A stretch of 42,100 nucleotides of DNA, taken from the NCBI GenBank assembly GCA_032718475.1, contig JAUCBJ010006922.1:1-42100 (forward strand), written 5' to 3'. Under the pieces are notes generated by a model. The model was not told the DNA's origin and did no database searches. It saw only the letters and a program-made list of their open reading frames with translations. The position numbers and the translations under genes are program-made. Below are positions 1,879 to 39,060 of the stretch, one piece after another (positions within the stretch are counted from its first letter, which is position 1; each line of letters opens with the position of its first letter). This stretch comes from Nemertoderma westbladi (lineage: Eukaryota; Animalia; Xenacoelomorpha).

Positions 1879-1879
1879 T

Positions 1880-11172: not shown

Positions 11173-11907
11173 TCAATGGAAAAACAATAAACCCATAAAA
11201 GAAACGAGAAAAACATTGAAACTTCCAAATATTTTGTTAGCGAAGCTTTCAACCAATGTAGAACTGCCAGGTGTTGCGGTCGTTGGAGGATCAGTAGTAG
11301 TAGTTGTTGTTGTTGAATCTTCAGGTCCCGCTCTATTGTAAGGTATCGGGTTTCCATCCAGATCAAGTTGCCAGACTGGATGTTCCCAGTTGTAGGTTCC
11401 GTCGCTGTTTATATAAGCGGGTAAATGGAATTCGGGATGGTCAATTGAGTTGCAAACTTCCACCCCTTCGCAGCATGTTTCCATGCAAAAGCCCTCTAAT
11501 ATTTTCACTGTTACTCCTGTGCCGTATTCCGCGTCTAAAATCTCCTGCATAAACTCTGCGAAGTCGGTGCACGGGTATTCGGATTGGGCTTCGCAACCAC
11601 CATCGTATGCGCAGGTTTCGTATCTCGCGCGGACTACAACCTTTATGTCCGGGTATTGTTCCAAGAAAGTTGCCGTGATTGCCTCTCCCATGTGACAAAC
11701 TGGACATTGGTCTTCCTGGACTAACCCATTGTTGGTTACTAATGATCCTCCCATATCCTGCCAATCCCAGTTTAAATCTGCCACATTTTCATGGTTGGAT
11801 GATAACTGTGTCTGTAGGCGACCATGGCTGCAGGTAACATTAACGCCATGTACTAAACCAACAGAGAGAGCAGTAATGCGAATGCCTAAGGACAAAACAT
11901 GGTTCAT
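11173..11907 (-). CDS. Secreted, GPI-anchored Ly6/uPAR (three-finger)-like protein, 244 aa
   Basis: Intact ATG-to-stop ORF. N-terminal signal-like hydrophobic stretch, 10 Cys ending in the CCEGVEVCN (CCxxxxxCN) LU-type motif, Thr/Pro-rich stalk, and a hydrophobic C-terminal tail consistent with a GPI signal. A splice-acceptor-like ctttacag lies ~25 nt upstream of the ATG. Confidence 0.75.
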   Translation of the reverse strand: MNHVLSLGIRITALSVGLVHGVNVTCSHGRLQTQLSSNHENVADLNWDWQDMGGSLVTNNGLVQEDQCPVCHMGEAITATFLEQYPDIKVVVRARYETCAYDGGCEAQSEYPCTDFAEFMQEILDAEYGTGVTVKILEGFCMETCCEGVEVCNSIDHPEFHLPAYINSDGTYNWEHPVWQLDLDGNPIPYNRAGPEDSTTTTTTTDPPTTATPGSSTLVESFANKIFGSFNVFLVSFMGLLFFH

Positions 11908-12689
11908 TGCAATAAATTATGATCGAGGATATCTGTAAAGTCTCAAATATCTCATACGAGTTAAAACGCCTTGAAATGTATTATTTTTGTTGATTCTATG
12001 AAAGTTTCTTTATAAATAGAGTAATAAAACAGCCTCAGTCTATTGAAGAAGTCTGTGATAAGAATCCGCAATACTTCTGGACTTCTGCATCACTAATCTA
12101 CAGCAGATGTTACAAGAATAAGTGAGAGTTTACTCCATTAATAATTTAAATTAGATGGCAAAACAAATTTATTAGTAAAGTAAGTTCTGGTGGCCCAAGA
12201 GTATCACACAGAAAAACATATTGAATTAAAAAATTGTTACAATAAATTCATAAAAAATAAAAAATAATATAAAAAAAATAATAAAAAAATGCATAAATAA
12301 ATTAAAATATATAAAAAAAAATTCATAAAAAAAATTCATAAAAAAAAATTCATTAAAAAAAAATTAAAAAAATAAGAAAATATATCATAAAAAATAAATT
12401 ATTTTCAAATTATATCTTTATTTAGTGAATGGAAAGTTATGCTATATTGGTACACACATTCAGTACACGAATTATAAAAATGGTTCTAGAACAAATAATT
12501 TTGTTCTAGAACATTTTAATTCCACATGCTTTACTTCAAATAATTAATACATTTTATGTATCACAATTAAATAATTATCTTTAAACATTAAACATATTAC
12601 AAATTATAACATTGACAAACAGACAGACCTAGACACAAAAAAAAATGCAAAAAAAAATTATTACCAATTTCCCCGTGGCCCATCGATAT

Positions 12690-15391: not shown

Positions 15392-15412
15392 CAGTTCTGC
15401 AGCTTGAGTATA

Positions 15413-16289
15413 CCCACCTACTGGCTCCAGAAGTCGAGGAAATCCTGCCAAGTACCTAACTGAATTAGACTTTGCTGATGACTCAGGAGTACTCTCAGAA
15501 TCATTAGAGGGAGCCCAACGGCTCCTCAGCTCATTAGAACATGCTGCTTCTAGTGTTGGTCTTTTTATTAACTCAAAAAAGACCAAAATTTTGACAGTTA
15601 ACTTTGAAAGTCCTCAGCAAGTCTCTGATCGGATGAGCATAAGCTCAAAGAATGGTATGCTTGAGCATGTGGACGACTTCTGTTACCTGGGATCATGGAT
15701 CCGGAAGTCAAGTGAGGACCTTCGAATACGTAAGGGAAAGGCATGGGCAGCCTTGAATAGGCTTTCCAGGATTTGGAAGTCACCGAGAATTAATCGGAAA
15801 CTTAAGGTCCGATTATTTAGAGCAGCAGTAGTTCCAGTACTCCTCTACGGGAGTCCATGCTGGGCTCTAACTGCTGAGGACACCAAATCTCTGGATGGCA
15901 CATTCACAAGAATGCTACGCCGGGTTCATTGTGTCAAGTACAATGCACACATCTCCAACCAGACACTATATAACATTGGAGGTGTCTCATTGGTTCCCCC
16001 AAGCTTGACACTAGAACAAAATCGCCTCCGCTTTGCAGGACATTGCTTTCGCCGTGAGGACCAGCCAGTGCATAATCTTGTACTTTGGCAGCCTCATGGA
16101 GTGAATAAGCATGGTGGACAGCCCATGACTTTCTTGAGACGCATCTTAAAGGAAACTGGCCTTGAAGATGCGGATGATCTAGCAAATGTCATGGGTGATA
16201 GGGAGTTGTGGCGGTGCAATTTTGTTGACAAGCCGGCACAGCATTCTCAAAAATGCAACTGCAATGCAGCATGCCGATCCTAGTAGTAG
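15413..16289 (+). mobile_element. 5'-truncated RTE-clade LINE with 9-bp TSD
   Basis: ELDFADD motif and an open C-terminal ORF (15591-16283; FCYLGS, RLRFAGHCFR). (TAG)3 tail. TSD TTGAGTATA at 15404-15412 and 16290-16298. Confidence 0.92.
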
Positions 16290-17093: not shown

Positions 17094-17936
17094 TGGACCG
17101 AACTGGATCGAAACCGACGAACAGGACCGAACTGGATCTAAACCGACGAACAGGACCGAACTGGATCGAAACCGACGAACAGGACCGAACTGGATCGAAA
17201 CCGAGGTGAACAGGACCGAACTGGATCGAAACCGAGGCGAACAGGACCGATCTGGATCGAAACCGAGGCGAACAGGACCGAACTGGATCGAAACCGAGGC
17301 GAACAGGACCGAACTGGATCGAAACCGAGGCGAACAGGACCGAACTGGATCGAAACCGAGGCGAACAGGACCGAACTGGATCGAAACCGAGGCGAACAGG
17401 ACCGAACTGGATCGAAACCGAGGCGAACAGGACCGAACTGGATCGAAACCGAGGCGAACAGGACCGAACTGGATCGAAACCGAGGCGAACAGGACCGAAT
17501 TGGATCAAAACAGAGGCGAACAGGACCGAACTGGATCGTAACCGAGGCGAACAGGACCGAACTGGATCGTAACCGAGGCGAACAGGACCGAACTGGATCG
17601 TAACCGAGGCGAACAGGACCGAACTGGATTGAAACCGAGGCGAACAGGACCGAACTGGATCGAAACCGAGGCGAACAGGACCGAATTGGATCAAAACAGA
17701 GGCGAACAGGACCGAACTGGATCGAAACCGAGGCGAACAGGACCGAACTGGATCGAAACTGACAAACAGGACCGAACTGGATCTAAACCGAGGCAAACAG
17801 GACCGAACTGGATCGAAACCGAGGCGAACAGGACCGAACTGGATCGAAACCGAGGCGAACAGGACCGAACTGGATCGAAACTGACAAACAGGACCGAACT
17901 GGATCTAAACCGAGGCAAACAGGACCGAACTTGATC
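17094..17936. repeat. Minisatellite, 31-bp unit (with 29-bp variants), ~27 copies
   Basis: Unit gaaaccgaggcgaacaggaccgaactggatc, with no unique spacers. Confidence 0.97.
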
Positions 17937-19019
17937 AAACTAGACCGCCAAATGAAAGATAATCTAAAAACAATGCAGACAGAAGAAAATTAATATTGAA
18001 TTTAATTTGGTCTTTTCATACTTTGCAATTTTAGTTGCGTATAAGATGTCGCTAATTTAAGATTTCTCTTAATAAAATCTTAATAAATTAAGATATATTA
18101 AAAGTATAAAACTACCGACGGTACAGTCCAACAGACTCTCCTTTTTGACCAATCTGCAGATTATTTCTGAATTTTTGACGGACTGCCTACGTACCAAATT
18201 TGGATTAATTTTATCAATGATTGATGATGAACCACAATGAATGAAAATTTGGCCGTCATAACAAAAATACGAGAGCCACTTTTTCTCCTAACGGATCCAA
18301 AAGGAACATAATTAACATCTGGTAAATCGAATTCACCGTTATTTTTGACAAAAATCTTGATAGACCTAAGGTACTAAAGTCCGTGAATAAAGTCCGTAAC
18401 TAAACAAGTTGGCTAGCGAGAAGTAAAGCTGCAAGCGGTCATAATATTCAAAGGGATTTTGTAGCGGGAAAAGCCAGTTTCAATCTATCAAACATATAAA
18501 TCATTCCAGTTCCAGCTATCAATTTTAAGCCGTTTGGGTATTTGACACGCTGAGGCGAGGGCGTGATAAATCATTTACACGGGTATTTTATTTACAGAGC
18601 ATATAATATTATTTGCATATAATATATATATAATATATTTATTGACAAAAATATATTGTCCAAAATCGCACAGACTAGAATCAGTAATAATTCAAACTTT
18701 AACCTTTACTAGATACAGATTAGGGTGGTTCAAATTAAATTAATACATTAAATAGTACTAATAATACTAAATAATACTAATACACTAAATAATAATAAAT
18801 CATTACTGTATACTATACTGTAACGGAGAATTTTCTACGTTTTTTTGCCAAGTTATGTTATTCTTAAATTGGTACTTTTTTGTTGCTCAATTCTTTAATA
18901 CTTTAATAATACGGTTTTTGTGGGTCCATCTATTATTGTTGAGTAAGTGATTAACATTGTTTCATATTATTGTATTACATAGGCCTAACAGAGTGACAGT
19001 CCACTCCACTATGCAAATT

Positions 19020-19090: not shown

Positions 19091-19577
19091 TATTACATTA
19101 CATTACATTATTTGTAATATTACATGGGAAAAAGTAGCAGAACTTTTTTTTACTATTCCCGAGGTAGAGTAGGCCTATTCTGTTTTTTATTTACCGAGCG
19201 TCACCAAGCACCGAGGTTAATAAAGGGTCGAGAGAATATTGAAAAAAACGTTCAACGTTTTTTCCCCATGTTGGCCTAATATGTAATTTTATTCTTAAAT
19301 TGTAATTTTATTGCTTCATTCTTAATAAATAGATAGAGCGATATAGTGTTACAAAATAAATTGAACTGTGTAGTATTATTCTATATTACTTCCATAGTTA
19401 CTGAGATTCGAAATACTGTACCTTTCAACTCCTGATGTCGTCTTACTCAATGTTAAATATTTTAGTGTTTGTAAAAGCTTTTGCGGACATAACAAGTCAT
19501 TTTTACGCAATGCGCTGAATACTCTAAAAAGGCCTAAAATTGTTCAACTACGCGTCGGTCAGAAATTAGAACCAAGA

Positions 19578-20740
19578 TGTTCGCGCTTTTAGACCTTTAG
19601 CAGTTTAACCTGCCAAATTTAGGTGTCTTCTAAGTATTAAATCGACTTTAGCCTATAACAAGTATTTGATACACATAAAGTTACATTAGCCGAAGCCAGC
19701 CTATGCGCGATCATTCACCCACGGTTAAGGGAGACTGGATTCGGATGCTCTGACCTTATTGCGGTGTAGACCTACTGTACTATTCGATTGATCGTTAATA
19801 TATAATCTCTGACAAATATTATTCACTTTCGGGAAATATTAACAGTTCCTTTAGGACGTGGCGCTCTAAGTATGTAAACAGAGTTATGACTTACACTAAA
19901 CACAACGGGATGGCTAATGATTTTCGTATAAAGCGCATTCTTTAGGAAATGCTTTGTTATCTGTCATACTCATGCACACTACCGCACACTGCTGCACACT
20001 GATCTGCCGACCTTCACTAAATTTGATCATATATAAGGAGAACAGCAACTGACACATGTAGGGTCTATGAAATAGCATTCAATTCACTCCAAAACCACTA
20101 TAATGTAAGTCGCAATTGCTATATGTAACCGGTCTCTCTAACCTTCAGTATATCAAGAAGATTGGGGTTTTAGGATTATTTATCGATATTCTCCAAATAT
20201 AACAACATATCCATCAACTGATAACAATTAATAACCGACAGTAAAAGCAGTAAAATGATGCGGTGAAAGGTTGTGCATAATGCATATGATGTACTGATAA
20301 CAGTTATACGTTTCTATAATCAAAGCCGTTCTAATGTTTGGCTAAAGTCTGAAACACAGAATAATTCCAAAGCCGATGTTCTGGGCTCAGGAAAAAAGGT
20401 AAACAAAGACCATAATGCATTGCGCGATCTTCCGTAGGCTTCTGTACAAGATAAAATGAAAATCGCTCTGATTGGTCGAGTGAGCCGAACAAAGAAAGCC
20501 AAAAAGCTTCACATCGACATATCAGCTGATAGATGTCATCATCTGAACTACACTGTATTAAGAGTATTTTGGCATATTGCGGCATAAAATGGCTAGTTAT
20601 GTCCGCTAAAGTACACATACAGAAAAAATGGCTTTTTATGTCCACTAAAACACCTACACAGTAAGAAAACGGCTTTTTATGTCCGCTAAAACACCTACAG
20701 AGTACTTTGCGGGGAAAATGACTAGTTATATCCGCAAAAG
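19578..20740 (-). repeat. BEL 3' LTR (lacks the first 8 nt of the 5' LTR)
   Basis: 1163-bp match to 30904-32066 with about 11 differences. Confidence 0.9.
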
Positions 20741-20804: not shown

Positions 20805-22357
20805 TTAGTCTTTCTTGCGCGGACGGCGTTTACGCAGTTTTTTGAGGCTAGCAAGAGTCCTTTTCTCTTTGGGGCGAGCCACTTTACTAGGAGGGCTATA
20901 ACTCCTGGGTGAAGGGTGCAATACAATTGCATCGGAAGGTTTAGGATTACGGTCGGTGTATCTGCCGGTCGAGGTACCTGGTTGATCGATATCAACCTCA
21001 GTGGAGCGAGGTCTAACGGCCTTTAGAGCGCGTTTTAGGACAGCAGCTCCTACTGGTCCCTGACGAGTCATCTGAACGATAGCGGTAGGTGGACCGTGAG
21101 TAGTGAGAAATTTCCTCGGTTTGATGATTCTTTCCAACTCGCGTTCTCGGGCTCTATCAAAATCGATATGCTTCTCCTCGAGCTGATTTTCCTCCGCTTG
21201 TTGTTGAAAGCATTCGTCCAAACTCTTGCAGAAAGTAGAGTCGTCCAAGTTCGATATCTTCTTATAGATTCTGGATTTCCTGATCGAACTGAGATAAATC
21301 TAATTCGTTTACCGCTTGGACTTGCTGCTGCAATTTACGTTTCTCTAAACAATTGTAGGTTCCTTTTCCAATCTTTTGACGAATAGTGTCCAACGCGTTT
21401 CGTACAACTCTCTCCTCCACCTCGGTGACGGGTTGTATCGGGGTTAAACCGGGATGATTGTACGGGTTGAACGGCGATATTAGATGCCCGCGTCCCAATC
21501 CGGCTAGGTAATATGGGAGAATATCTAGGGAGCCCACAACCGGAGTGCCACCGACTAACTGTTCGGGTAACACTAGATCTTTGAACAGTGAGTACAGTTC
21601 GGGAGGATCCGTGATACTATTAGGATCAAGAGTCTGAGGTCTAACTAGGGAAAGAGGAGGTCTGACCGAGTATTCCGGAACTCTGATCATAGGTTGATTT
21701 AAGGATCGTTTGAGTCAAGCGAGCGTAGGTGATACATCGAACAAGTTTTGCTCGAAACTCCCGTAAATATAGTGAGTAAAACTGTGTTTAGAGCAACGTC
21801 TCCGCGGATGTTTATGTCTTTCCGTTTGTTGGTTGGGTCTTGGGCATTCATCGCAATAATACCAAAGACGCACGTCTTGTAGGGGAAACGCGGGTGATAT
21901 TTATTCGGTTTTTCCATGTTTCTCTCAAGAATTCCAAATATACGTTGGAGTTACCGCGTTTATCAGGTTCTTTAACGTCTTCTCTTTCGAGTCGATTTCG
22001 AATAGAATTTTCGCATTCGATTTTCAGTTTATCGTTCCGACTCTGCTGGGTAGGATATTTAAATAGGACCATTTCCCTTTCGGTGTCGACATCGTCCGTA
22101 TCGTGTAAATCGATAGGATGAACAGTAGTTAAGAAGTCCATATGCGTACCATTACGATGCGTATAGCGAGCAGTGAATCTTCGATAGTCCAATTCACGAG
22201 TGAGCTGCTCCTGGGACATTGGCGGTTCAATATAACGACCATCGTCCTCCGTAGTAGTTGGACCAGCGTCGCCGCGTATTAAGCTATCAACAAATGCTTG
22301 CAACGGTAGAGTATATCGATCCCTGATACCAAGATCATCTTCTATCAACTCAGTCAT
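20805..22357 (-). pseudogene. Accessory 3' coding region of the BEL element, unknown function, probably one fragmented ORF
   Basis: Four consecutive or overlapping sense-strand ORFs (21848-22357, 21699-21917, 21262-21690, 20805-21248) in a GC-richer block. Hydrophilic, ending in the basic KKLRKRRPRKKD. No recognisable domain. Confidence 0.55.
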
Positions 22358-23179
22358 AGCTGCTATATGAGTTGATCAATATTATGATTAGTTATAATTA
22401 GGCTAGCGGGCGTCGCTGCCTACCCCTCATGGCCCCCGGACAGCGCAAGATCCTCAGCGCTGATGTACTGTCGCCGCTGTGCCTATCGCCCACATAGTAG
22501 CTGCACAACGACAACAACAACCAGCGCGAGTCACTCCACTGTCCGTCCCAAGGGGTTAGATTTACTTCAGGTTCTTACTGCAGAGGTAGTGTTACTTTCA
22601 CAATTGCGACTCGCTACTGTAAACACACTTTAGTAGTAACATTCACCTATAAACGCACAAATTCCACACAACTGTCACAAACCGCACACATTCGGGCCAT
22701 TTGTCCGTTAGTCAAGTGCCTTCCAGAATGCCACGTTATTATTGGGTATCCTTGGATACTAGCAGTGTGCTATTTATTCCTTATGCTATTCAATGGGGCA
22801 AGCTTTATTGTTCTTTTAACTCACTTCTAATTCTAGTGTGGTTGTTGCCATGGTGACATTATGGAAAGCTAGCAGTAGAATTATGATAATTCTCATGCAT
22901 ACAGATCTGGGATGCTATTTAATAGTAATTCTTTAATTGTCAATATTCTTCTTTATACATGATTTTATGAATTTTATCGGCTATTGACTATATATTGGAG
23001 ATTCTCGCACACTAATATACTTAATAGGGTGAATCTCCGCTCCCATGATCTATTAATTAATGGAATTTTGGGAATGTTATAAATTGTATAAAAATGACAA
23101 TTTATCAAATTCATTAAAAGAGATGAATTTAAATTTATTCCCGTAAATTTTATTATTTATCCTTAAAACAGACATAATT

Positions 23180-24064: not shown

Positions 24065-27000
24065 TCACATTGGGGAGTCCCTGGATGTTGGTTGGATTAG
24101 GGAGGTGGTCGTGGGAAGAGTATCTTGCCTTCCATAGTTTCCGGACAGTTCTCGTTCTCTTTCCAGTAAACATAAACGACCAACTGGGCGATTGAGTTGT
24201 TGTGTTTCGAATACAATTCCAGGTTTCCTCTTTGTCCTGGAATAGTGACGATAGAAACATCGCTTCAAATACACGACGGCCTTACAAAGCCGATTCCAGG
24301 ATCTATAGTGGTCCATCGCTCCCGGCATGAGAGGTGAGAGTCCCGGCGAGACGTCTGGTGTTCCAGATCTCCAGTCTCTCTCTCTGATCTCCACAACAGA
24401 TCGGTTCGTGGTGGGGGAGTTTAGATCCACAGCGTCGTCCCTGGCAATGTGTAGTACAGACAGATCTATCACGGGTTTAAATAACCTTGATTTACTCGTC
24501 CGGGTTTTAGGTTTGACTTTCTCCGCTCCCTTGGCTTGTCTAATCTCAGCCGTGGTAAGATGGGGAGGCCATTCATCTTCTTTACTTAGGAAGTCGGGTC
24601 CACCTAGCCAGTCTGGAGTATCTGTCAGTTCTTGAGGAGTTGCTCCTCTGGAAGCGATGTCGGCTAGATTAATCGTCTCGGGGCAATGTCTCCATTGATC
24701 TACATTAGAGTTAATATCGTCATTATCTGAGGAGTATGGTGTTCCTTCAGTTGTGGTCGTCTCTCCCTCACTGATGTCTTCTTTCCATTCACTCTCCTGA
24801 TGGACCTGATCTTTGGGTAGCCTTTCCAGGAGTGTCCTACGGGAAGGTCCAGTGAAGTACCAACCTACTCTTGTTCTTCCCGCATAGGTTTGCAATGGTT
24901 GCGGTCGAGCAGGCCGTTTCTCTAATGTCTCAAGCGCCTCATGCGCATTTTGGCCGATGAGTATCTGTACCACTGGGTAGTCAGTGTTGAATCTAGGTAT
25001 CTCATGCTGCTGGGTGAAATCGTCTTCATCCCAGTTATAAGGTTCCACTTGGCTGGTAGCGAAGTTCTTTATCGCCACCATTTTTACTGACCTTATACTG
25101 TGTTCTCCTAGCTCATCCTGGGGGGTGGACAATGCGCCTACATAGTAGTCTGTAGCTACTGTAGATTTCCAAACCTGCATAATTCCTGAAAGGTTCAACT
25201 TAGTTCGGAACTTGGGTTGTCCAGCAAAGATGTCTTCGGCTAGTTCTTTGTCGATGAATGTTCATTTGCTGCCGGAGTCAAGGAGGGCGTTCACTATATA
25301 GCTATTTTTTAACTCATGGACTCTCAACTGCACTATGGGAAATTCCTGGATTCCTACGTTGGAAGTTGGCGCTTTCCAAGATGGTTGTCGATCTGGAATA
25401 GTTAGGGGGAGCTCACTATCAGTTTCAGTCTCATACGTAAGTGCTCGATACACTGCGGTGTTTATTAGATAACAGGATTCGTTTTCGTCGGAGAATTCAT
25501 CCGTGTAGAATCCTTCCATCTCAGAACTGAGGTCAGTGTCGTTCACATCAATGAATTGGACATGTAGTTCGGGCTCACTTACCTGACTCGTGCGGGTTCT
25601 TTCAAATTCTGTGTGCAGCAAGATATGATGTTTCGCGCCGCACTTAGCACACCTTGCGTCGGAGTAACAGGTTCGCCGTTGGTGTCCTTGTCTGAGGCAA
25701 TTATAACATAACCGCTTATCCCACATGACTTCACGTCTATCTTTTAGTGATTTCCTTAGGAATTCATCACACACACTTAAACGGTGGGGCCCGTCGCACA
25801 GCACACATTTTGGTTTGATGTTACTTACCTTACCTTGGGTAACGTTGTGCACACTCGTTCTTTCCTAGGGTTTTCTTCCGTGAACTCTCTTAGGAGACGT
25901 AGGAGGAGTTTTTGTTACCTGTTCTCTCCTGTCATTGGTTCGAGACTTAAATTTACTTACGTCTTTAGGCGCTTTGTTGACATAGTAAGATCTTCCAGTG
26001 TCTTTCCCGCTGTGCTCCTCATGGGAGGTTTGGCTTTTGCCGTCGTCGGTATAACACACTGGTGTTACCTTTCGCCTAGAAACGGAATTTTCACTTACCT
26101 CACTTTCAGGAGTCTTCTCTCTAGACTGTTTTAGGAGTTGTAATCTTACCTCTCGGTTTAAGAATGACAGAAGGTCCGTCATGGTTGGATCTCTATGTTG
26201 TTGGTCCATCAAATAGAGAACCTTTTTGTCCCAGCGAGTACCTACTTCACTCTTTGGCAAAGCTGATGCTAAGGCTCCTACAACCATAGAATTCTGGTAT
26301 TCATGAGACTTACCTAACCAGTCTAGTTGTCTACAGATCTCCTGTATCTCATCGGAAAACTCTATAATCCCGCTGCTAAGGAACTTTTGGGGCGCTACCA
26401 ATTTTGCATACAAATACCTAGCTATGTTATTCCTATTACCATACCTGATGTTCAGTGTATCCCAAACTTATCTTAATCCATCTGGATGTCCAATAAACTT
26501 TAACGCTATTAACTTGGGAGATCCTTCCAAACACTCGATGAGGAATCTAAGTTTCTCTCCGTTAGATAGTACAGAGTTCTGTATGATATCTTTGTAATAT
26601 TCATTAAAAGGTAACCATTTCATCTCATCTCCATTGAACTTGACAATCTCTCCCACCTTTACCGCTGGATGGGCTTCGGTTCTAGCCATTTGACGCGTAA
26701 AACTTTCTTGGGCCATCGTATTATTTAATATCGAGTTATCGGTATATAAATTTCTCGGATTAGGATCAGATCTATATGGAATGTCATTGTCAACAGGTTT
26801 ATAATTACCCTTAATAGGGTTTACTATAGGAGTTTCTACTTCACTAGCAGTGTAGATGCGTGTAGGCTCCACACCTTGCGCATGAAATACTTCAGACCTA
26901 ACAGGTTGACACATTGTTACAGGGGGTGGTGGTATACCCTTTTGTGTATTTACTAATTTATCGCGTTCTAACGCGATACTCTGCTGCACTTCTTGTAACT

Positions 27001-28984
27001 CTAACCTACTTTCCCTTACTGTTCCCTTGAACTGTTGAACAGTCTCCTGCATCTGCCCGAGCAGGAGATCCATCCCCCGCCGTCCCTCATCCACCCACTC
27101 GACCGCCGAAGCGAGAGCCGCCAACATAGTAGCGGGTAGACGAGGGACAACGGGCGACAAATCGTTGATATTTCGCTCGGAGTTCAGGACAGGAACTGTC
27201 TCAGGGGCGGTTCTACTGGGCACAGGTAGTTTAGTGCTGTGCAAAGGGAATTTAGAGGTAGGTTCTGGGAGTACAGGTGTCTCTATCACCAAAGGGGTGG
27301 CTTCGAGGACAGGCCTAATTATTTCAGGCTCATCTACTATAGTAGGGAGTATTTTTACTCTAATAATTTGGTCTGTGGGTTCTGTACTACCTAAGTCTGA
27401 GCTAGCTAGTTGCCTTCTCACAGCTGGGGGCAAATTAGGCAATTTCTGATGGTGGGGTATTCTTCTACGCCTGCTGAGACGAGATCTATTTACTCCGCCT
27501 TCAGGATCTGTTGTATCGCCTTCATCTGATGATGTAAAGCCCTGTCGCTTGGGGGTGGATCGACTTATCATCTGCCACTGAGTAGCTGTTCTCTGTTTAT
27601 CTATGTAGTGCCATGTATCTACTGCTTCTGCCACTGCCTCTGCCGCTTTTCTTTCTGCCGCTGCTACCTTTCTTTCCGCTTCTGCCGCCTTTCTTTCAGC
27701 CTATGCCTCTGCCGCTGCCGCTGCCGCTGCCGCTTTTCTTTCAACTTCTGCCGCTGCTGCTGCTGCTATCTTTCTGTCTTCTATACGTTTTTTCTTTACT
27801 TGTTCTTCTTGAACCCTAACGATGCGGCTACTTTCATCAAATTTAGCTTGGTTCGCAACTAACATTTCCGCATCTATTGCGTCCAGCACAAACTTGGCTC
27901 CTTCACTATTAGGACGAAGTCCAGCCAGCCTTCTCCTCAACTCTTCGTCACCTAGAAATCGTTGATAGTCTGACAGATAGATGTCAATGGCATCCTTCTT
28001 CTGAGGTTTCTCTGATGTTGCTTCGCTTTCCACTTGAGAAAAGGTAGCGTCTGTTGAGTCCCCGTGGGTTGAGCGCTCAGTTAGCTGAATTTTCCATTGG
28101 GTCGTTCCTTGAACCTTGAGACTCACCCATTGAAACCAAGTCTTGACAGCAACTTGCAATGACGTGTCTTGGGTTCTCTTCGAAGCTTCCTCAAAGGCTG
28201 ATAGGAGTAGTCTGATTCTTAGAATTCTTTCTCAAACTTGATAAAGCAGCTCTCCCTGCTCTTGAGGTCCTTGGTGTTGTTGAAACAGTTGTTCCTCTAA
28301 TCGCTCCAAAGAGCTGAAGAATCCCTGTACATATCCTGCTGCCGACCTCTTCCACACAGCTGGATCACTAGTGTCTTTTGTCACTCCCATCCTGTGTAAG
28401 TCCTCCCAGGCAGCTTCCGATAAGTTAAACGGGAGTCTGGGTCCGAGGAAGTTCCATTGCGTCTCGACAATAGACTTCAGTTCCTCCCTTGTGTATCCCG
28501 CATAACTGTCCTTGGTCGATTGCTTACTTCTCGCCCAATCAATTTGGTGTTCCTCCACCGCAATCAATACCCTAGTGAGTACGGATGCAGGAAGAATGAG
28601 AAGGGGATCCGAATAAACCGCATCTGCCATCTTTGCTCCGCGCTCGGGTGTCAGCTCTACAGTATCCGAACTAATGGAGCTATTGGGCCGCTGAGAAATA
28701 AGTTCTCGGCTCGGGTGTTGCTGGTGCTGCTGTTTAACAGCTGCCTCTTGGTCCCGCTTGACTTGAGCCCTAGTGCCTATGATAGACCTATGGTGCTCTA
28801 CTAGCCTAGGGTCTGACACTACTACTGTAGGGATGACCTAGCTTACAGTAGGAGGGGACTTGGACTTTGGTCTCAGACATTCTATACTCTTAGCTGAGTC
28901 CCAGATCCTTTTAAGACCCTGTCTAACACTCATTCTAGCACTTTCTAAGAGACTATCTGACAGTGTTTGTTTTGTGTCAGACAT
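24065..28984 (-). pseudogene. gag-pol: BEL gag-protease-(RNase H tail) polyprotein; one reading frame with six in-frame stops
   Basis: ATG at 28984. ORFs 28232-28819, 27701-28159, 26468-27634, 25865-26413, 25262-25852 and 24065-25198 are all in one frame. Motifs: KFNGDEMKWLPF...EKLRFLIECLEG (DUF1759-like Gag); CX2CX3HX4C, CX2CX4HX4C and CX2CX3HH-LLH knuckles; ALLDSGS protease; GWYFTGP; then QWRHCP..NLADIASRG, WLGGPDFL, SWNRL. Confidence 0.9.
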
Positions 28985-29390: not shown

Positions 29391-30903
29391 CAATTATTTT
29401 AGAATAATTTAATTTCTGAATTCTAGGGTTACTTAGTTACTTTACTTTACTTTATTACCGTTATTTAAGCAGTAGTCCAACTGATATTAAGACCTAATTG
29501 TTATATGACAGGCCTACTATTTTATAAATCGGTTTGAGTTGATTTATAATATATATATACCCGTTTAATGGGTTTTGTTACAATATTTGAAATAAATGTT
29601 ATTATTTCTGGGAAGGAGTCACTACACAGAAGCTGTACGCTCTCAGTGAAGTGCTACTTGTTGGACACTAAAACAAATAATTCTAATTTACTAAGTTACT
29701 TATTACTACAAATTACGTACAATTAAGGGGTGAGATTACAATCTCTAAATAAACACAAAAAATTACACGTACAATTTTTTAGGGGTAATTTTACAAGAAA
29801 TCTACAAACCAGCCTAACAAGGAGTTAGAATTTCTGGTTATTACAAACGGACAGGATACTACGGTATTTGAAAATAATAAAGCAGTAGTAAATATATTGT
29901 GTTGTCTAGATAGGAAAATACCACCGTCTGACGACTTATAGCCGTAGCGCTATAAGTACTACGTTATGTACAAGGAGTGTTCCTACCTAGAAGTTAATTA
30001 CCGCAGCCTACTATAGCTAACGTGCCTATTAAATATACTGCCTACAAACTAATTACCTTCGGAAAGCACTGTACACTAAACCCTAAATTAGGTACAAGTA
30101 CTTATACAACAAATAACCAGCAGTTAAAAAAACTTGTACAGCTAAAAGAACCACGGTATCTGCCAGAGTGACCAGAGCATAAAATCACCAGTCTTTACCT
30201 ACGCCAAACAGCCCTGATGTAGTACCGGGGTTAATTTAACTATAACGGTATATATAACAAGCACAATTACTGTAGGAATAAACTTGGGGTTGTGAATGTT
30301 GCGAATAATCGCATATACTCTGAATAATAAATATTACGCTACCCGTACAGACTACACAAACAAAATACAGACCAAACGCTGGCAGACTACTATTAAGCCT
30401 AAATAAACTACAGTATATGCAGACTCCGAAATGGTTAGTTAGTATGCGTTCTAACCAAGTAGTACGACTTATTCTTTCGGGGGGGGGGGGGGGGGGATTT
30501 ACCTTACAGCACTGGATGCCCCCACGTTCCTAACTAGTACTTTATCGGACATACACTCTACACACACTGCAATCTCTTCAGACTTAACAACAGTCAGACA
30601 ATAATCCAGCCTACAAATTACTTGTACAATCTGAGCAGGCATACATGCCTTCTGTTCAATATTAACCTACAAATAAATAAAACTGACAGAAATAAGTAAA
30701 CCATACAAAGGAATGAGAGGTGATCAATCCCTAATCCCCTAACAGCCTACAATATACAATATATCACAATCGAAATAATACTAGTACCTGTACTGCTGTA
30801 AGTACCGGTTCGGGTATTTAGGTAGTTAGGCCTACTGGTTACCGGTCGACCGGTACTTTTGCCTTTATTGCCTACGTTGCAATAAAGAAATTATAACTGT
30901 TAT

Positions 30904-32074
30904 TGTTCGCGCTTTTAGACCTTTAGCAGTTTAACCTGCCAAATTTAGGTGTCTTCTAAGTTATAAATCGACTTTAGCCTATAACAAGTATTTGATACAC
31001 ATAAAGTTACATTAGCCGAAGCCAGCCTATGCGCGATCATTCACCCATGGTTAAGGGAGACTGGATTCGGATGCTCTGACCTTATTGTGGTGTAGACCTA
31101 CTGTACTATTCGATTGATCGTTAATATATAATCTCTGACAATTATTATTCACTTTCAGGAAATATTAACAGTTCCTTTAGGACGTGGCGCTCTAAGTATG
31201 TAAACAGAGTTATGACTTACACTAAACACAATGGGATGGCTAATGATTTTCGTATAAAGCGCATTCTTTAGGAAATGCTTTGTTATCTGTCATACTCATG
31301 CACACTACCGCACACTGCTGCACACTGATCTGCCGACCTTCACTAAATTTGATCATATATAAGGAGAACAGCAACTGACACATGTAGGGTCTATGAAATA
31401 GCATTCAATTCACTCCAAAACCACTATAATGTAAGTCACAATTGCTATATGTAACCGGTCTCTCTAACCTTCAGTATATCAAGAAGATTGGGGTTTTAGG
31501 ATTATTTATCGATATTCTCCAAATATAACAACATATCCATCAACTGATAACAATTAATAACCGACAGTAAAAGCAGTAAAATGATGCGGTGAAAGGTTGT
31601 GCATAATGCATATGATGTACTGATAACAGTTATACGTTTCTATAATCAAAGCCGTTCTAATGTTTGGCTAAAGTCTGAAACACAGAATAATTCCAAAGCC
31701 GATGTTCTGGGCTCAGGAAAAAAGGTAAACAAAGACCATAATGCATTGCGCGATCTTCCGTAGGCTTCTGTACAAGATAAAATGAAAATCGCTCTGATTG
31801 GTCGAGTGAGCCGAACAAAGAAAGCCAAAAAGCTCCACATCGACATATCAGCTGATAGATGTCATAATCTGAACTACACTGTATTAAGAGTATTTTGGCG
31901 TATTGCGGCATAAAATGGCTAGTTATGTCCGCTAAAGTACACATACAGAAAAAATGGCTTTTTATGTCCACTAAAACACCTACACAGTAAGAAAACGGCT
32001 TTTTATGTCCGCTAAAACACCTACAGAGTACTTTGCGGGGAAAATGACTAGTTATATCCGCAAAAGCCTTTACA
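30904..32074 (-). repeat. BEL 5' LTR (1171 bp, TG...CA)
   Basis: Minus strand reads TGTAAAGGCTTTTGCGG...AAAAGCGCGAACA. Short tandem motifs lie near the start, and the CCAAT box at ~31797-31801 is conserved in the sister solo LTR. Confidence 0.92.
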
Positions 32075-34174
32075 CAAGATGACGAAATCTGTCAGCTGAT
32101 TCTTTGTGTACGTGGAGGTTTCTTTGTTTGAGCCTATTCAGCCAATCAGAGCAATCTTCCCAGTTATGCCAATAGAGACCTACCTGTGGAAATTGGCGCA
32201 TGCGCAGTTATAGTTTTTCTGAGAACCCAATCCTTTTCTGGATTCTGTACTAAGTACAGACGTTTCAGACTTCGGCCCAAGAACATCTGATGGCTTGAGT
32301 TATAAGAACGTAAATCTATTAACGTAACAACTTAAAGCATGGTGACACACTGCTTGTCTCACCTTGTTTCACATCATATCGCCGCATACACATACTGACT
32401 CTGTTCACCGCACTGTTTTAATGCAGTTTTATATTGTTGTTAATTGCTGTTTATATTAATGGATGTTATATTTGGAGAATACCGATAAATAATCGTAAAC
32501 CCCTTAATTACTGAGGTAAGCAGAAGGGTCTACTGGTAGCAACTGCGACTCAAATTATAGTGGTTTTTGTGTGGATTAAATGCTATTTCATAATCCCTAC
32601 GTGTGTCAGTTGCAATCCTCCTTATATATAATCAAAATCAGTGACGGTCGGCAAATTAGTGTGAATTAGTGTGAAGTAGTGTGAAGTCGTGTGAAGGTTA
32701 ATAAAGCATCTCCTAAAGAATGCGCTATTTACGAGATTCCATAGCCATCTAGTTGTGATTAGTATAAGTCATAACTCTGTTTTATACTTAAAGCGCCACG
32801 TCCTAAAGGAACTGTTAATATTTCCCCGAAAGTAAATATAGTTGTCGGAGATTATATAGTAGCGATCAATCGAATAATACAGTAGGTCTACACCGCAATA
32901 CTTCCTCCGGAACCCGAATCCAGTCTCCCACACCGTGGGTCATACGCCGCGCACGGACTGGCTTCGGCTGATGTAAATTCAGTACACCAGGTAATTGGTA
33001 AGGGCAAAAGTCGATTTATAATTAAAGGACATTTAAATTAGCAGGTTAAACTGCTAAAAGGTCTAAAAGCGCGAACAGTGTTCTCGAATATTTATTACGT
33101 AACTACTGTAGAGATCCCACTAACTATATACATAAACCAATATTTGTTATTGACTTTCGTTTTGGAGTTCGTCTTGCAGACACTAAAGTTGTAAATTTAC
33201 ATAATAATATACAAGCTATTTAAAATGATAAGCTTAACTATTTAACTATTTTAACTATTTAACTATTTAACTGATAAGCCGCTTTCTATACTGTCACGTG
33301 CTGCGCAACGTCCTCCCTCAAGTTTTATTGATTGTAATGAGTAAGTAGGCAATGGGTTAACTTCCTGGTTTAGTAAAATCTCCTATGTAATATTATAATC
33401 ATAACTGACTGCGGGGGCAGGCGAGGCATAGGCCTACATATTATTAAATCAGGTCACGGTAGGCTGATACAGTCTTACATACTGTGATGTAATATAATTA
33501 CAGTATAGTTTTGTACTGTTGATTAATATTACGTACGTAAATTTTTTAACTTACATAAAGACTATATTGCCGGGTGTTCGTGTGAACTTGTGAACAGAAG
33601 CAATGGAAATAATATTAGGTGAAAATAATGGTGTTCGTAAAGGGGAAGGCTCATACAGTATATCCTTAGTCCAGCAAACAGCATTAAAATTGCTACTGCT
33701 ATTGGACTGTCAGTTTATATGATTCATGCTTACGAGCTTACTTACAGTAGGCCCCTAGTGTGACCCGCCCTTTATTTACTTTATATTCGTATCACTATAG
33801 TATACTGTAGTGTGACGGCTTGAGTATGATTAATGTTAACCAATATTTTGTAATGTTTATACAGTACTGTACAATTATGCATTTATATAGATATAATATT
33901 TGATTTAAAAAGCTAAGCCTGTCTGCCTATTTCTACCGTATGGCGATAGATAATACTGTTATGTAGTCCGGCTTGTACTGTAGTACATATTATATGTAGT
34001 AACAATGTGTTGGCAAGCTGTATTTTTCGAGGTGCTTGTTATTATACATTTATTATAGGAAGGGATCTTGGGGTCTTAGCCTCGAATGATAAGTTTATTT
34101 TACCGAAAAGAACTTATCTTTTATTGGCGCAATTGTAGGACTAATCCCATCACATGCGTACTTTTTAAGGCCTA

Positions 34175-34477
34175 GTCCTGGCCTGGCCTAGTGGTTGTAG
34201 TCTCGGCTTCCACCTCGAGGTCCCAGGTTCGAATCCGACACCACGCTGATGAGACCCAGTAAGGTCGAAACGCGTACGTGGTTTGGAGAGATATGAGATA
34301 TTAATTTCAAGAAAAAAAATTACGCGATTCCTAAATTTGTACACTACCCGGTTAAAAAGTACGCATGTGATGGGATTAGTCCTACAATTGCGCCAATAAA
34401 AGATAAGTTCTTTTCGGTAAAATAAACTTATCATTCGAGGCTAAGACCCCAAGATCCCTTCCTATAATAAATGTATA
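34175..34477 (+). mobile_element. tRNA-derived SINE-like retroelement carrying a hammerhead ribozyme
   Basis: Pol III A box TGGCCTAGTGG (34184-34194), anticodon-arm-like ctcgg-cttccac-ctcgag, B box GGTTCGAATCC (34226-34236), followed directly by the hammerhead. Confidence 0.8.
34240..34282 (+). ncRNA. Minimal type I hammerhead ribozyme
   Basis: Stem I ACCACG/CGTGGT; core CTGATGA (34246-34252); stem II GACC-cagtaa-GGTC; GAAA (34267-34270); short palindromic stem III ACGCGT; cleavage triplet GTA (cut after 34276). Confidence 0.9.
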
Positions 34478-34577
34478 TTATATGTAGGCCTAACTTACAG
34501 TATCAGTAAAGTTTTAGTCCGGCTTGTAGTACAAAGGCCTACTACTACAGTAAAGTGAACCGACAAACTGAACCAAC

Positions 34578-34800
34578 ACGCATGTGGGCGAGCCACGAAG
34601 TGAGCGAAGCCTTACCATAAGGTTGCCATTAACGAGTTGTCTGTCGTCGTCGTCTATCGTCGTCGTAAATTTTTGATCGCTAATAACTCGGTTATTCCGT
34701 GATGAAATTAAACGAAACTTGGTACGTATGTAGTCCGGCAAAAGTTTAGAAAGAATCGGATGCTTGGTAAAACTAAACGAACGAACGCAACGAGTTTACA
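34578..34800 (+). repeat. Possible Helentron/DINE-like non-autonomous fragment
   Basis: Short palindrome ccttaccataagg, a (GTC)n microsatellite, then aataactc...aaacgaaacttggtac motifs. This layout is common in such elements, but the ends were not resolved. Confidence 0.35.
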
Positions 34801-36287
34801 GTGGATACGAGTATCCATCTGCCATAAATCAGCAGTTACTCTCACAGTTTTGAGACTTTGCATAGTTATAAAGGTCGTTAGTCTCCGTTTAGGAAAATTA
34901 TTTTAAGATAAAACAGGACGAGCGCAACGAGGCTAATGAAGGAGAAGAGTATTGTAAAACTAAAAATGTCATACTTAGCTTAAATAACCCTAGTTAGAAG
35001 TTTATAAATGACAGTTAAAGTGTCTAAGGGCAAACTGAAATGGATCTCTGTTTTTACAACTATTTTATCACAAACTGATAGCATCGCCTTCACTCATATA
35101 TATTTTGGGAAAGACGGTTTTCGTATATCTAATAGAGATTAGTATAATGTACTTTCTAATATAGGCTCTCCTGCTGCGCGAAGGCACCACAAACGTGCAT
35201 CACTTGTATACAGCCACATCAAATTTTTGGTTTCATTTTCCCACCAGTAGTAATGTATTTCGTTGGAAATTACGTTCATGGGCGCATATAAAGTAGGCCT
35301 ACTGTAGGATATTTTATCAGAGAAGATTATTCGTATAAGTGAAATAAACAAATTTGTAAACCACTGCCGCATTTATATTTCGCATTAATTATATTTGTCA
35401 ATAAAATAATTGCTTTTTCCAGTAAATTATTACATTGATTTTTCACTAAATTTTTTCTCACTAAAATATATACATATCATTATCACTCAAATGTATTTTT
35501 GTATCATAAAAATTAAAACTGTAACCTAGTGAATCTCGTTTATTGTTTTGGTTAGAATAATGTGCCACTGTATCCTGCTCTTTCGCTTATTTGGTTATAA
35601 TCTATAGATTTTAGTGATAAGTGGAAACAAATATTTTAGTGATTTTCGTGTGAAAATTTAGTGAACAAAGAATATTAAATGACTGTCTATATTATTTTTT
35701 TATAGCAATTGTAATGGGTACAATAGTATATTATACTGGTAAATAGTAGAATGATCTAGAATGACCTAGAATCGCCTAGATAATGATCCAGTTCCTAACA
35801 AGTGAGTGATCATATTTAAAACGATTTTCCTAATTTTTTGACCATGAAAATAAATAATAAAATAAATTGTCGACCCTAGGGGCGAGTGGTCTATCACCAA
35901 CAAAAAATCATGATCTACAAATCATTATTAAAATTATGTTTTATATCCTATAACGATATTCATTATATTCAAATGGTCATTTGGTTAAATAAATAGGAAT
36001 ATCGTTTTAATTTTGATCACTCACTCACTCAGTCATTGCCTACACGGTTTTATATCTAGGATGGATTCGTTACAGAAAGTAACCTGACGGTTCCTAACAT
36101 TACTGAAATCAAATTAATAGAATATGTACTTACTGTACTTATAGAATTAGCACGGTATGGCTATGCATTATTGTTATAGTTGAGTAGGCCTATAGGTCGA
36201 TACACCTCTGTATTATCTCATATTTTGCTCGCTATAGTTAAATATTTATCTTATTATAACTCAGTATAGGTCGGTATTATCTCGTTA

Positions 36288-37780
36288 CAGGTCGGTATTG
36301 TTCTTTATTAAGTCCCTACTGTATAGCTCATTCTATGTGATTCTTCTTGTTATAGCACGTTATAGGTCGGTATTGTTCTTTATTAAGTCCCTACTGTATA
36401 GCTCATTCTATGTGATTCTTCTTGTTATAGCACGTTATAGGTCGGTATTGTTCTTTATTAAGTCCCTACTGTATAGCTCATTCTATGTGATTCTTCTTGT
36501 TATAGCACGTTATAGGTCGGTATTGTTCTTTATTAAGTCCCTACTGTATAGCTCATTCTATGTGATTCTTCTTGTTATAGCACGTTATAGGTCGGTATTG
36601 TTCATTATTAAGTCCCTATAGCTCATTCAATGTGATTCTTCTTGTTATAGCTCGTTATAGGTCGGTATTGTTCTTTATTAAGTCCCTACTGTATAGCTCA
36701 TTCTATGTGATTCTTCTTGTTATAGCACGTTATAGGTCGGTATTGTTCATTATTAAGTCCCTATAGCTCATTCAATGTGATTCTTCTAGTTATAGCTCGT
36801 TATAGTTCGGTATTGTTCTTTATTAAGTTCCTATAGCTCATTCAATGTGATTCTTCTAGTTATAGCTCGTTATAGTTCGGTATTGTTCTTTATTAAGTTC
36901 CTATAGCTCATTCAATGTGATTCTTCTTGTTATAGCACGTTATAGGTCGGTATTGTTCTTTATTAAGTCCCTATAGCTCATTCAATGTGATTCTTCTAGT
37001 TATAGCTCGTTATAGTTCGGTATTGTTCTTTATTAAGTTCCTATAGCTCATTCAATGTGATTCTTCTTGTTATAGCACGTTATAGGTCGGTATTGTTCTT
37101 TATTAAGTCCCTATAGCTCATTCAATGTGGTTATTCTTGTTATAGCTCGTTATAGTTCGGTATTGTTCTTTATTAAGTTCCTATAGCTCATTCAATGTGA
37201 TTCTTCTTGTTATAGCACGTTATAGGTCGGTATTGTTCTTTATTAAGTCCCTACTGTATAGCTCATTCAATGTGATTCTTCTTGTTATAGCACGTTATAG
37301 GTCGGTATTGTTCTTTATTAAGTCCCTATAGCTCATTCAATGTGATTCTTCTAGTTATAGCTCGTTATAGTTCGGTATTGTTCTTTATTAAGTTCCTATA
37401 GCTCATTCAATGTGATTCTTCTTGTTATAGCACGTTATAGGTCGGTATTGTTCTTTATTAAGTCCCTACTGTATAGCTCATTCTATGTGATTCTTCTTGT
37501 TATAGCACGTTATAGATCGGTATTGTTCTTTATTAAGTCCCTACTGTATAGCTCATTCTATGTGATTCTTCTTGTTATAGCACGTTATAGGTCGGTATTG
37601 TTCTTTATTAAGTCCCTACTGTATAGCTCATTCTATGTGATTCTTCTTGTTATAGCACGTTATAGGTCGGTATTGTTCTTTATTAAGTCCCTACTGTATA
37701 GCTCATTCTATGTGATTCTTCTTGTTATAGCGCGGTATAGGTCGGTATTGCTTTTTATCATCTCCTCATAGCTCATTCTA
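36288..37780. repeat. Minisatellite, 75-bp and 70-bp units, ~20 copies
   Basis: Unit gtcggtattgttctttattaagtcccta[ctgta]tagctcattc(t/a)atgtgattcttcttgttatagcacgttatag. The 75-bp units cluster at the ends and the 70-bp units in the middle. Confidence 0.97.
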
Positions 37781-39060
37781 GGTGATTCTTAGGTCATTCT
37801 AGGTCATTCTAGATCATTCTAGCTCATTCTACTTTTTAGCATGTGTACCTTAATGGTAAGATTAATTGAGCAGTGGTCCTAAGTTATTAACTGTAATTAA
37901 ATTATTGATGGATATTTCAATATTGTATTGTTTAGTGGGGCGAGGTACCGTAGTATTGGCAGATTCAATACGAGAATGGGATGATTATAAGGAAGACGTC
38001 ATCATAAATTACCGAGCTAACGCATCTAAGATTTTACCAAGCCTTCCTAAAGGAGCTGACAAGAGAAACACACAAACAAACAAATGTGATTCCTTGTTAT
38101 ACCATATATTGGTAGACAATGGTAGGTCAATACATTTAGTAGATACAGTATATTCTGTATATTGAAAACTACGTATATACTGTAGGCCTATTCGTATTAT
38201 TTTATAACGAAATTGCAACTTTATATTAGGAGCGCATGCTGAGTAGTTTACTTTTTTTTTTATATATAAATTGTTATTCTATGTTTTAGTGTACCGGTAA
38301 TTTTAAGGGCGATGTTCCATGGGGTTGGGGATGGGTGGGGGGTGATTTGAGATGCGCAGTTAAACAGTTGGCCCGGCTATTGTTCTTCTTCGCCATAATA
38401 AACTAATTCATCAGTTGTTGCATCATGCAACATGTATTACATCCAGAATCTTTGAAATGGTCCAAAATTGCTTTGTTAACCTAGATAAACATTATTATCT
38501 TTGAACACCATTTGGCTTATATGGTTGGTACTCTTATTTTAATAAAGAAACTCCAATTTAATTTAAAAAACGGCAACTTAAACAATTTAACAATTTTAAT
38601 ATTCGTGTGCTATTGCCTTTTAATATGGATTGATATTATAATTTGTGCAATAATTTAATTAATTTTCACCTGAAGTCCTGAACTAAATAAATAAATAAAA
38701 AAATAATAAATAAAATAATAGGCCTGCTACTATTTTTGCCCGATGACAACCCAACATGCCATTAGACATTCTGCCTGTTATTATTATTAACGCTCAAATA
38801 TAATAAAATATAATAATTTGACGAGGAAAACAAGTAGTGCGTTTAGAGTTAATTTATTAAAGTCGCTTGGTTTATCAGAGCTCAGAATCTCCTTCACGTA
38901 TGAGTGTGAGGACCGGATACGGCATGTTATTTGTTGTCGTGTAGGTGTAGCAACCCACAACCGGCTGTCCTGCAGAAAGAACAAACATTGGTTTTTCTTA
39001 CTAAAAAATTGGCAATACTAGGCCTACTCTCGTAACAAGTTCCATTCAAGGGATATACTG

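What the first reader, a model, noticed from the sequence alone, without database searches (positions are those of the whole stretch)
34175..34282. tRNA-headed SINE fused directly to a minimal type I hammerhead ribozyme
Seen: Pol III A and B boxes are followed within 4 nt by a complete hammerhead (ACCACG-CTGATGA-GACC cagtaa GGTC-GAAA-CGCGT-A-CGTGGT), with an unmutated core and a palindromic ACGCGT stem III. Known: such minimal hammerheads typify Penelope-like element pseudo-LTRs and retrozymes and cleave best as dimers; SINE-hammerhead fusions are known from few taxa (e.g. schistosome Sm-alpha). Inference: a Pol III-transcribed, self-cleaving non-autonomous retroelement family, likely undescribed in this genome. 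Cleavage after 34276 would separate the tRNA head from the 3' body.
Basis: partly seen in the sequence, partly recalled or inferred. Interest (0 to 1): 0.8.

Follow-up and report, generated by a model that had tools for sequence, protein, structure and literature searches.

The report
tRNA-promoter retrozyme with Penelope insertion scar
This is one incomplete, mirror-image copy of an abundant 411-base non-coding repeat that carries tRNA-type promoter boxes just ahead of a hammerhead motif predicted to cut its own RNA in pairs, a design known from blood flukes, and its ends suggest that a Penelope-type jumping-gene enzyme likely pasted it here.

Summary
The motifs are real: A box 34184-34194, B box 34226-34236, and 3 nt later an intact type I hammerhead (34240-34282). 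A similar motif set arose in 0 of 300 shuffles. Two labels are wrong. By the published definition the hammerhead is the canonical weak-helix-III type, not a Penelope 'minimal' one. The boxes are not the 5' head of a linear SINE: a public contig closes the family into a 411-nt cycle running 74 nt upstream of the A box. The window holds 337 of those 411 nt as a 13-nt target duplication, an inverted 3' arm with a 46-nt extra tail, 15 nt of filler and a 5'-truncated direct arm. This is the published Penelope insertion layout. The family is young and abundant (roughly 10^3-10^4 copies), and the site is likely empty in another sample. Best reading: an Sm-alpha-like, Pol III-box retrozyme, likely mobilised by a Penelope-type enzyme from uncut or re-circularised RNA. 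Transcription, cleavage, circles and the partner enzyme are untested. The scan noted a 411/412-nt element of this design before on other pieces of this genome; sequence identity with it was not shown.

The parts
33987..33999 (+). Left copy of the 13-nt target-site duplication; its last 3 nt also match the element end
   Evidence: Identical to 34475-34487, flanking letters differ; chance about 3e-5 for 13 nt, about 6e-3 for the unambiguous 7-nt core
33997..34042 (-). 46-nt 'tail': family sequence present only on the inverted arm, 68% A+C in the sense strand
   Evidence: family contigs cover it, and the largest cluster of loose ends lies at 33997 (35 contigs in X1, 21 in X3)
33997..34168 (-). 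Inverted, 5'-truncated copy of the 3' part of the unit (172 nt with tail)
   Evidence: 126 nt identical to 34352-34477; 129-nt inverted repeat at 99%
34169..34183 (+). 15-nt junction filler made of short repeats of the A-box region; not family sequence
   Evidence: Family loose ends before 34184 differ (19 contigs in X1, 7 in X3); letters
34184..34477 (+). Direct, 5'-truncated copy of the unit from the A box to 46 nt short of the tail end
   Evidence: Summed contig depth of order 1e5 against 17-26 in the flanks; X4 record 17
34184..34194 (+). Pol III A box (exact match to the recalled consensus)
34226..34236 (+). Pol III B box; its last 3 nt lie in the predicted distal stem I of the ribozyme
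34234..34287 (+). Type I hammerhead with extended stem I; core motif 34240-34282, palindrome 34270-34275, predicted cut after 34276
34411..34414 (+). Only run of four T in the sense strand of the known 337 nt; possible, likely leaky, Pol III terminator
   Evidence: leakiness is recalled knowledge, not tested
34475..34487 (+). Right copy of the target-site duplication; its first 3 nt also match the element

Best explanation
The window holds one truncated, mirror-image insertion of an abundant 411-nt non-coding repeat, likely a retrozyme of the Sm-alpha design: Pol III likely transcribes it from the A/B boxes, the hammerheads are predicted to cut as dimers into unit-length RNAs that would circularise, and a Penelope-type RT/endonuclease likely copied the RNA into this site. 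Inferred insertion route: the enzyme nicks both strands of an AT-rich target 7-13 nt apart; each end primes cDNA at one of two internal sites about 46 nt apart in the RNA; the two cDNAs (172 and 294 nt) are joined head to head through filler. The longer cDNA runs 93 nt past the predicted cut site, so its template was uncut or re-ligated RNA, not a cut linear monomer. This copy has one hammerhead and is predicted to cleave poorly unless it pairs with another transcript.
For: Shown: motifs beyond chance. X4 record 17 (441 nt) maps in three pieces with a 30-nt terminal overlap, a 411-nt cycle of 337 known plus 74 unplaced letters. X1 laid 2831 and X3 1137 contigs on 33950-34351; none of the 7 substitutions at 1% or more of depth in X1/X3 lies in 34184-34351. 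Target duplication, inverted arm and one-sided tail match the PLE layout in PMC8557442 (passages). Two clusters of 3' ends with unlike flanks, 33997 (35 X1 contigs) and 34039 (9), are 42 nt apart, like the two RT start sites of PAc (PMC11167929 parts 1-2). 10 further inverted junctions appear among the joint rows shown (15 of 47 and 12 of 27 rows); 7 of 10 start 5' of the cut site, 1 at 34277, 2 after it. Both arms share three letters that differ from the family majority, one held by 0.03% of depth, which points to one template. X1 record 1 fits an empty site. No coding frame: the ATG inside the core closes after 15 codons; the longest open stretches (48 sense, 85 antisense codons) have no Pfam match.
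Against: No RNA evidence of transcription, cleavage or circles. The 411-nt cycle is one contig of a run guessed to be RNA and labelled as another organism, and a tandem DNA array would give the same cycle. No autonomous Penelope element was identified; 12 window ORFs scanned gave no GIY-YIG match. The family is young, so an unchanged core within the species is weak evidence of selection; about 0.4% of depth carries a core change at 34248. 8 of 9 Xenopus retrozyme dimers did not cleave in vitro (bioRxiv 10.64898/2026.07.22.740005), and PAc insertion did not need cleavage. The T4 run at 34411 could stop Pol III before unit length. The tail (46 nt) is longer than the 30-40 nt published, and its hairpin is weak (z -0.53). 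An earlier scan note reports a LINE-tail junction for a 412-nt unit. The empty-site joint row was not displayed, and the X3 junction contig has under 31 letters inside the element.
Confidence: 0.6

Rival explanations
1. The repeat is mobilised by a Penelope-type enzyme, but the ribozyme and/or the Pol III boxes are inactive passengers; the templates are uncut linear read-through transcripts of tandem arrays.
For: This copy and 7 of 10 other junctions were copied through the cut site. PAc insertion does not need cleavage. 8 of 9 frog dimers were inactive. The loop in stem I is reduced relative to the Rfam consensus.
Against: The core is intact and the dimer fold is strongly favoured. A diverged relative keeps B box plus hammerhead at 79 of 80 letters while the body diverges (one contig).
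Confidence: 0.17
2. It is the pseudo-LTR of an autonomous Penelope-like element with a tRNA-type promoter, and the window copy is a truncated two-armed insertion of it.
For: Same layout as PLE insertions; earlier scan notes describe such elements in other genomes; 74 nt of the unit and the flanks of most copies were not seen.
Against: The unit closes on itself at 411 nt; no open frame starts at the hammerhead or runs through the tail, unlike PAc; the hammerhead is canonical rather than PLE-minimal.
Confidence: 0.12
3. It is a conventional tRNA-headed SINE with an internal hammerhead, mobilised by a LINE (closest to the first reader's title).
Against: Family sequence continues upstream of the A box; 3' ends cluster at two internal sites with no poly(A) or repeat tail; both arms copy the same 126 nt and point outwards, whereas LINE-1 twin priming gives non-overlapping arms (recalled).
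Confidence: 0.08
4. It is a MITE (DNA transposon) with 129-bp terminal inverted repeats that captured the promoter and hammerhead.
For: 129-nt inverted repeat at 99% around a 183-nt core.
Against: The arms are unequal (46-nt tail); the arm sequence is the continuous body of the unit (34168/34351 joints); inner breakpoints differ in all 10 other junctions.
Confidence: 0.03

Closest known systems
Sm-alpha / Sj-alpha SINE-like hammerhead retroposons of Schistosoma (PMC6765202 passages; PMC2770079 passages; PMC8490949 passages; primary paper Ferbeyre 1998 not held)
   Same: Pol III-type promoter followed by a type I hammerhead in a repeated unit; promoter ends up at the 3' end of the cut monomer; copy number in the thousands.
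   Different: Sm-alpha is recognisably tRNA-Gln-derived, while this head is not called as a tRNA. Sm-alpha cleavage is shown, here it is only predicted. The passages read describe no inverted arm or tail for Sm-alpha. Sequence homology was not tested.
Metazoan non-LTR retrozymes (PMC7229834 passages and parts 3-4 of 6; bioRxiv 10.64898/2026.07.22.740005 parts 1 and 3 of 5 and passages)
   Same: Non-coding unit with a canonical type I hammerhead; 1-bp helix III capped by a palindromic tetraloop, like axolotl HHR_Amex1, which needs dimers; solo copies occur; PLEs proposed as mobilisers.
   Different: 411 nt is just above the 170-400 nt reported. 'Pol III' and 'polymerase III' occur 0 times in PMC7229834, and 'tRNA' and 'promoter' 0 times in the preprint's main text. 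Mobilisation by PLEs is a proposal there, from co-occurrence and phylogeny, not from insertion anatomy.
Penelope-like elements, e.g. PAc of Anolis (PMC11167929 parts 1-2 of 4) and the general PLE layout (PMC8557442 passages; PMC4209133 parts 1-2 of 4)
   Same: Inverted 5'-truncated copy next to the direct copy, one-sided tail, two internal 3' end sites, AT-rich target, hammerhead upstream of the tail.
   Different: No ORF; canonical rather than minimal hammerhead; tail 46 nt rather than 30-40; cut site to tail end about 245 nt.

Membership tests
Type I hammerhead ribozyme (canonical metazoan) | CUGANGA and GAAA core, NUH triplet, helix I 6 bp, helix II 4 bp, helix III 1-2 bp with palindromic loop | tested here: met
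   definition in PMC4209133
Type I hammerhead ribozyme (canonical metazoan) | Loop 1-loop 2 tertiary contact | tested here: inconclusive
   6-nt loop 2 resembles the Rfam consensus; loop 1 is shorter on both strands or a 1-nt bulge
Type I hammerhead ribozyme (canonical metazoan) | Self-cleavage activity | not testable with these tools
   Needs an in vitro assay
PLE minimal hammerhead (min-HHR) | Long helix II (7-8 bp), short helix I (4-5 bp), extra base between positions 9 and 10.1 | tested here: not met
   Helix II 4 bp, helix I 6 bp, no extra base
Non-LTR retrozyme / Sm-alpha type | Short non-coding unit with one type I hammerhead | tested here: met
   411 nt; no coding frame with a Pfam match in the 337 nt seen; 74 nt unseen
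Non-LTR retrozyme / Sm-alpha type | Head-to-tail tandem units in the genome | tested here: inconclusive
   One contig closes into a 411-nt cycle (tandem DNA or circle), in a run labelled as another organism; the window copy is solo
Non-LTR retrozyme / Sm-alpha type | Unit-length linear and circular RNA in vivo | not testable with these tools
   Only assembled contigs were available
Non-LTR retrozyme / Sm-alpha type | Internal Pol III promoter ahead of the hammerhead (Sm-alpha) | tested here: inconclusive
   Exact A and B boxes 42 nt apart; transcription not tested
tRNA-derived SINE | tRNA-related head forms the 5' end of the element | tested here: not met
   Family sequence continues 74 nt upstream of the A box
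tRNA-derived SINE | Detectable homology to a particular tRNA | tested here: inconclusive
   No ARAGORN or Rfam tRNA match; no eukaryotic tRNA set was available for comparison
tRNA-derived SINE | 3' poly(A) or short-repeat tail, or LINE-derived tail | tested here: not met
   Both arms end in unique sequence; homology to a LINE 3' end outside the window was not tested
Penelope-like element (autonomous) | RT plus GIY-YIG ORF | tested here: not met
   for this copy; linkage of other copies to an ORF not testable without the genome
Penelope-type insertion | Inverted 5'-truncated copy and one-sided tail | tested here: met
   10 further inverted junctions
MITE | Fixed terminal inverted repeats shared by copies | tested here: not met
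   Unequal arms and variable inner breakpoints

The most novel reading that the evidence does not exclude
This family is a self-sufficient RNA replicon in three short modules: its own Pol III promoter, a dimer-gated hammerhead that makes 411-nt circles, and a protein-free mimic of the Penelope double priming site. A Penelope enzyme primes from both nicked target strands on the same RNA and reads through the religated cut site. It would be direct genomic evidence that Penelope enzymes mobilise animal retrozymes, and a minimal cis substrate for them.
Probability: 0.35. Interest if true: 0.65.

Novelty: new member of a known kind. Interest (0 to 1): 0.42.

Why it matters
The promoter-plus-hammerhead design is known from schistosomes, so the architecture is not new. 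The value lies in the insertion anatomy. The papers read propose Penelope-like elements as the mobilisers of animal retrozymes from co-occurrence and phylogeny and call the mechanism open. A young, likely polymorphic, non-coding family with the inverted arm, tail and two fixed 3' end sites gives a concrete substrate for testing that, and for asking whether the template is a circle and whether cleavage matters for spread.

Tried and rejected
No whole genome is held, so there is no copy catalogue, array count or partner search. Rfam at gathering threshold: 0 hits in the window; ARAGORN: 0. No RNA holder is listed as on record; X4 is only guessed to be RNA. JGI metagenome scans: the 34-nt hammerhead stretch gave 0 matches; a B box plus core pattern gave 2, both rejected as chance, one in a bacterial integrase-like frame and one behind a bacterial tRNA. 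Look-ups of earlier findings by sequence gave nothing, so identity with the 411/412-nt notes rests on unit length and design. No second copy lies in the window. A 1181-bp duplicated repeat with an inverted relative was checked as a Penelope partner; the five ORFs scanned in or beside it gave no Pfam match. Fold z-scores of head, hammerhead and tail lie between +0.33 and -1.94 and carry little weight. The anticodon-like hairpin 34202-34219 is broken by both listed changes in the X7 relative, so no conserved tRNA fold is claimed. One junction starting exactly at 34277 could be chance (P about 0.06). Literature searches for the combination showed no listing beyond Schistosoma; most subscription papers and Repbase/Dfam entries are outside that library, two primary papers were not held, and no supplements were read, which may bear on novelty.

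Full report
Observation. Each is the only hit of its kind on both strands of the window (consensus motifs recalled). None of 300 dinucleotide shuffles gave a hammerhead or an A+B hit. Rfam HH9 matches at 26.6 bits, E 4.7e-05, below its gathering score of 52. No tRNA is called.

Type of hammerhead. PMC4209133 (parts 1-2 of 4) defines canonical metazoan type I hammerheads as helix I 6 bp, helix II 4 bp and helix III 1-2 bp with a palindromic loop. Its Penelope minimal motifs have a longer helix II, a shorter helix I and an extra base before stem II. This motif is canonical. It resembles axolotl HHR_Amex1, which cleaves poorly alone and well as a dimer (PMC7229834). Two copies co-fold at -31.7 kcal/mol against -23.4 for two monomers, with the six intermolecular helix III pairs at probability 0.91-0.99. 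Stem I extends by five pairs that include the last three bases of the B box. Loop 1 is reduced, so the tertiary contact is uncertain.

Extent and copy number. No genome is held, so I laid contigs of five of the eight public runs listed. Summed depth rises from 17-26 in the flanks to order 1e5 between 33997 and about 34480. The peak ratio is about 28,000 in X1 and 24,000 in X3. Overlapping contigs are summed up to 31 times, so this only bounds the copy number at roughly 800 to 28,000; the tool warns that it is not a copy number.

The unit. X4 record 17 (441 nt) maps as 34048-34168, then 34351-34184 on the other strand, then 74 unplaced letters, then 33997-34077. Its first and last 30 letters coincide, which makes a closed cycle of 411 nt. 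A tandem array and a circular RNA would both give this, X4 is labelled as another organism, and its RNA status is a guess. X1 and X3 independently show family sequence upstream of 34184 (19 and 7 contigs). Read by eye, those letters are complementary to the B-box flank and to the stretch just downstream of the hammerhead. In a unit cut at each hammerhead the boxes would lie near the 3' end, as described for Sm-alpha (PMC6765202 passages). The ATG in the core closes after 15 codons; the longest open stretches (48 sense, 85 antisense codons) match nothing in Pfam.

Conservation. With 2831 X1 and 1137 X3 contigs laid, seven substitutions reach 1% of depth in these runs. All lie in 33997-34168 and none in 34184-34351 (table complete, 9 rows, 2 from X7 only). 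Four of the seven are differences of this copy from the majority. The family is young, so this is weak evidence of selection, and about 0.4% of depth carries a core change at 34248.

Insertion anatomy. The insert is flanked by a 13-nt direct repeat (33987-33999, 34475-34487), of which 3 nt at each inner end also match the element. Inside lie an inverted 172-nt 3' arm, 15 nt of filler and a 294-nt direct arm. The arms share 126 identical nt, and the inverted arm has 46 nt more. PMC8557442 (passages) describes this layout for Penelope-like elements: an adjacent inverted 5'-truncated copy and a 30-40-bp tail at one end. PMC11167929 (parts 1-2 of 4) shows that the tail lies between two internal RT start sites and that targets are AT-rich. 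Here family contigs end with unlike flanks at 33997 (35 in X1, 21 in X3; consensus suggests the modal end is a few bases further out) and at 34039 (9 in X1); smaller clusters also occur (34053, 6 in X1) and 380 loose-end rows were not shown. Among the joint rows displayed (15 of 47 and 12 of 27), 10 are jumps from the inverted arm into the direct part with different breakpoints, mostly at single-copy depth. Seven start 5' of the cut site, one at 34277 and two after it. Their short sides are only 20-28 letters where given. Both arms of the window copy share three letters that differ from the majority, one held by 0.03% of depth, which fits one template RNA.

Polymorphism. X1 record 1 matches the left flank up to 33986 and has 137 letters left, which would run from the right target copy at 34475 to 34611. 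The same depth, 25.6, covers 34514-34581. This fits an empty site, but the joint row itself was among the 62 not shown. X3 record 9 matches 33800-34024 without differences, with fewer than 31 letters inside the element.

Mechanism. Shown: the motifs, the abundance, the 411-nt closure in one contig, the layout, and copying through the cut site. Inferred: Pol III transcription, with read-through of the single T4 at 34411; dimer cleavage; circularisation, for which RtcB is proposed in retrozymes; and Penelope-type priming from both target strands. A linear monomer cut at 34276 could not have templated this copy, so the template was an uncut transcript or a circle. Against activity: 8 of 9 frog retrozyme dimers did not cleave, and PAc insertion did not need cleavage. 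No partner element was found in the window.

Comparison and verdict. It works like Sm-alpha and the animal non-LTR retrozymes. It fails the tests for a 5'-headed SINE, a MITE, an autonomous PLE and a PLE minimal hammerhead. The host is likely an animal, judged from earlier notes and the retroelement content; this was not tested. Earlier scan notes describe 411/412-nt elements of this design on other pieces of this genome, one with a mirror-image polymorphic insertion and one with a LINE-tail junction. They prompted the tandem-unit reading, which I then tested, but sequence look-ups did not link them to this copy. Seven paper searches listed no such promoter-hammerhead family outside Schistosoma, within a library that lacks most subscription papers and repeat databases; supplements were not read. 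New member of a known kind; interest 0.42.

Noticed in passing
window 34586-34790: A second high-copy repeat with a sharp left end at 34586 (63, 62 and 15 contigs with loose ends in X1, X3, X5) and a 79% homolog at 18144-18216. Not identified.
   Followed up: no
window 19561-20740, 30886-32066, 32404-33077: A 1181-bp repeat present twice at 98.6% with a 79% inverted relative; no Pfam match in the frames scanned.
   Followed up: partly
window 1720-6214: Gypsy-type LTR retrotransposon with 159-bp direct repeats 99% alike and a protease/RT frame broken into pieces.
   Followed up: partly
window 24065-28837 (-): Bel/Pao-like retrotransposon remnant (DUF1759 matches) with several stops.
   Followed up: partly
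window 9046-10185 and 15408-16283: Two LINE-like RT remnants, 81% alike, in opposite orientation.
   Followed up: partly
window 11173-11916 (-): 247-codon open frame with a signal-peptide-like start, cysteines, a Thr-rich stretch and a hydrophobic end; no Pfam match. Possibly a membrane-anchored secreted protein.
   Followed up: partly
window 20805-22375 (-): Three open frames of 150-175 codons without a Pfam match.
   Followed up: partly
window 17095-17940 and 36283-37790: Tandem arrays of 31-bp (27.6 copies) and 70/75-bp (20.8 copies) units.
   Followed up: no
window 13525-13653/14552-14673; 329-427/6276-6374; 39094-39162/40270-40338: Further near-perfect inverted repeat pairs, possibly DNA transposon ends or other two-armed insertions.
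   Followed up: no
run X4 record 17: A near-identical full unit lies in a run labelled as a different organism; this could be contamination, a relative or a label difference.
   Followed up: no
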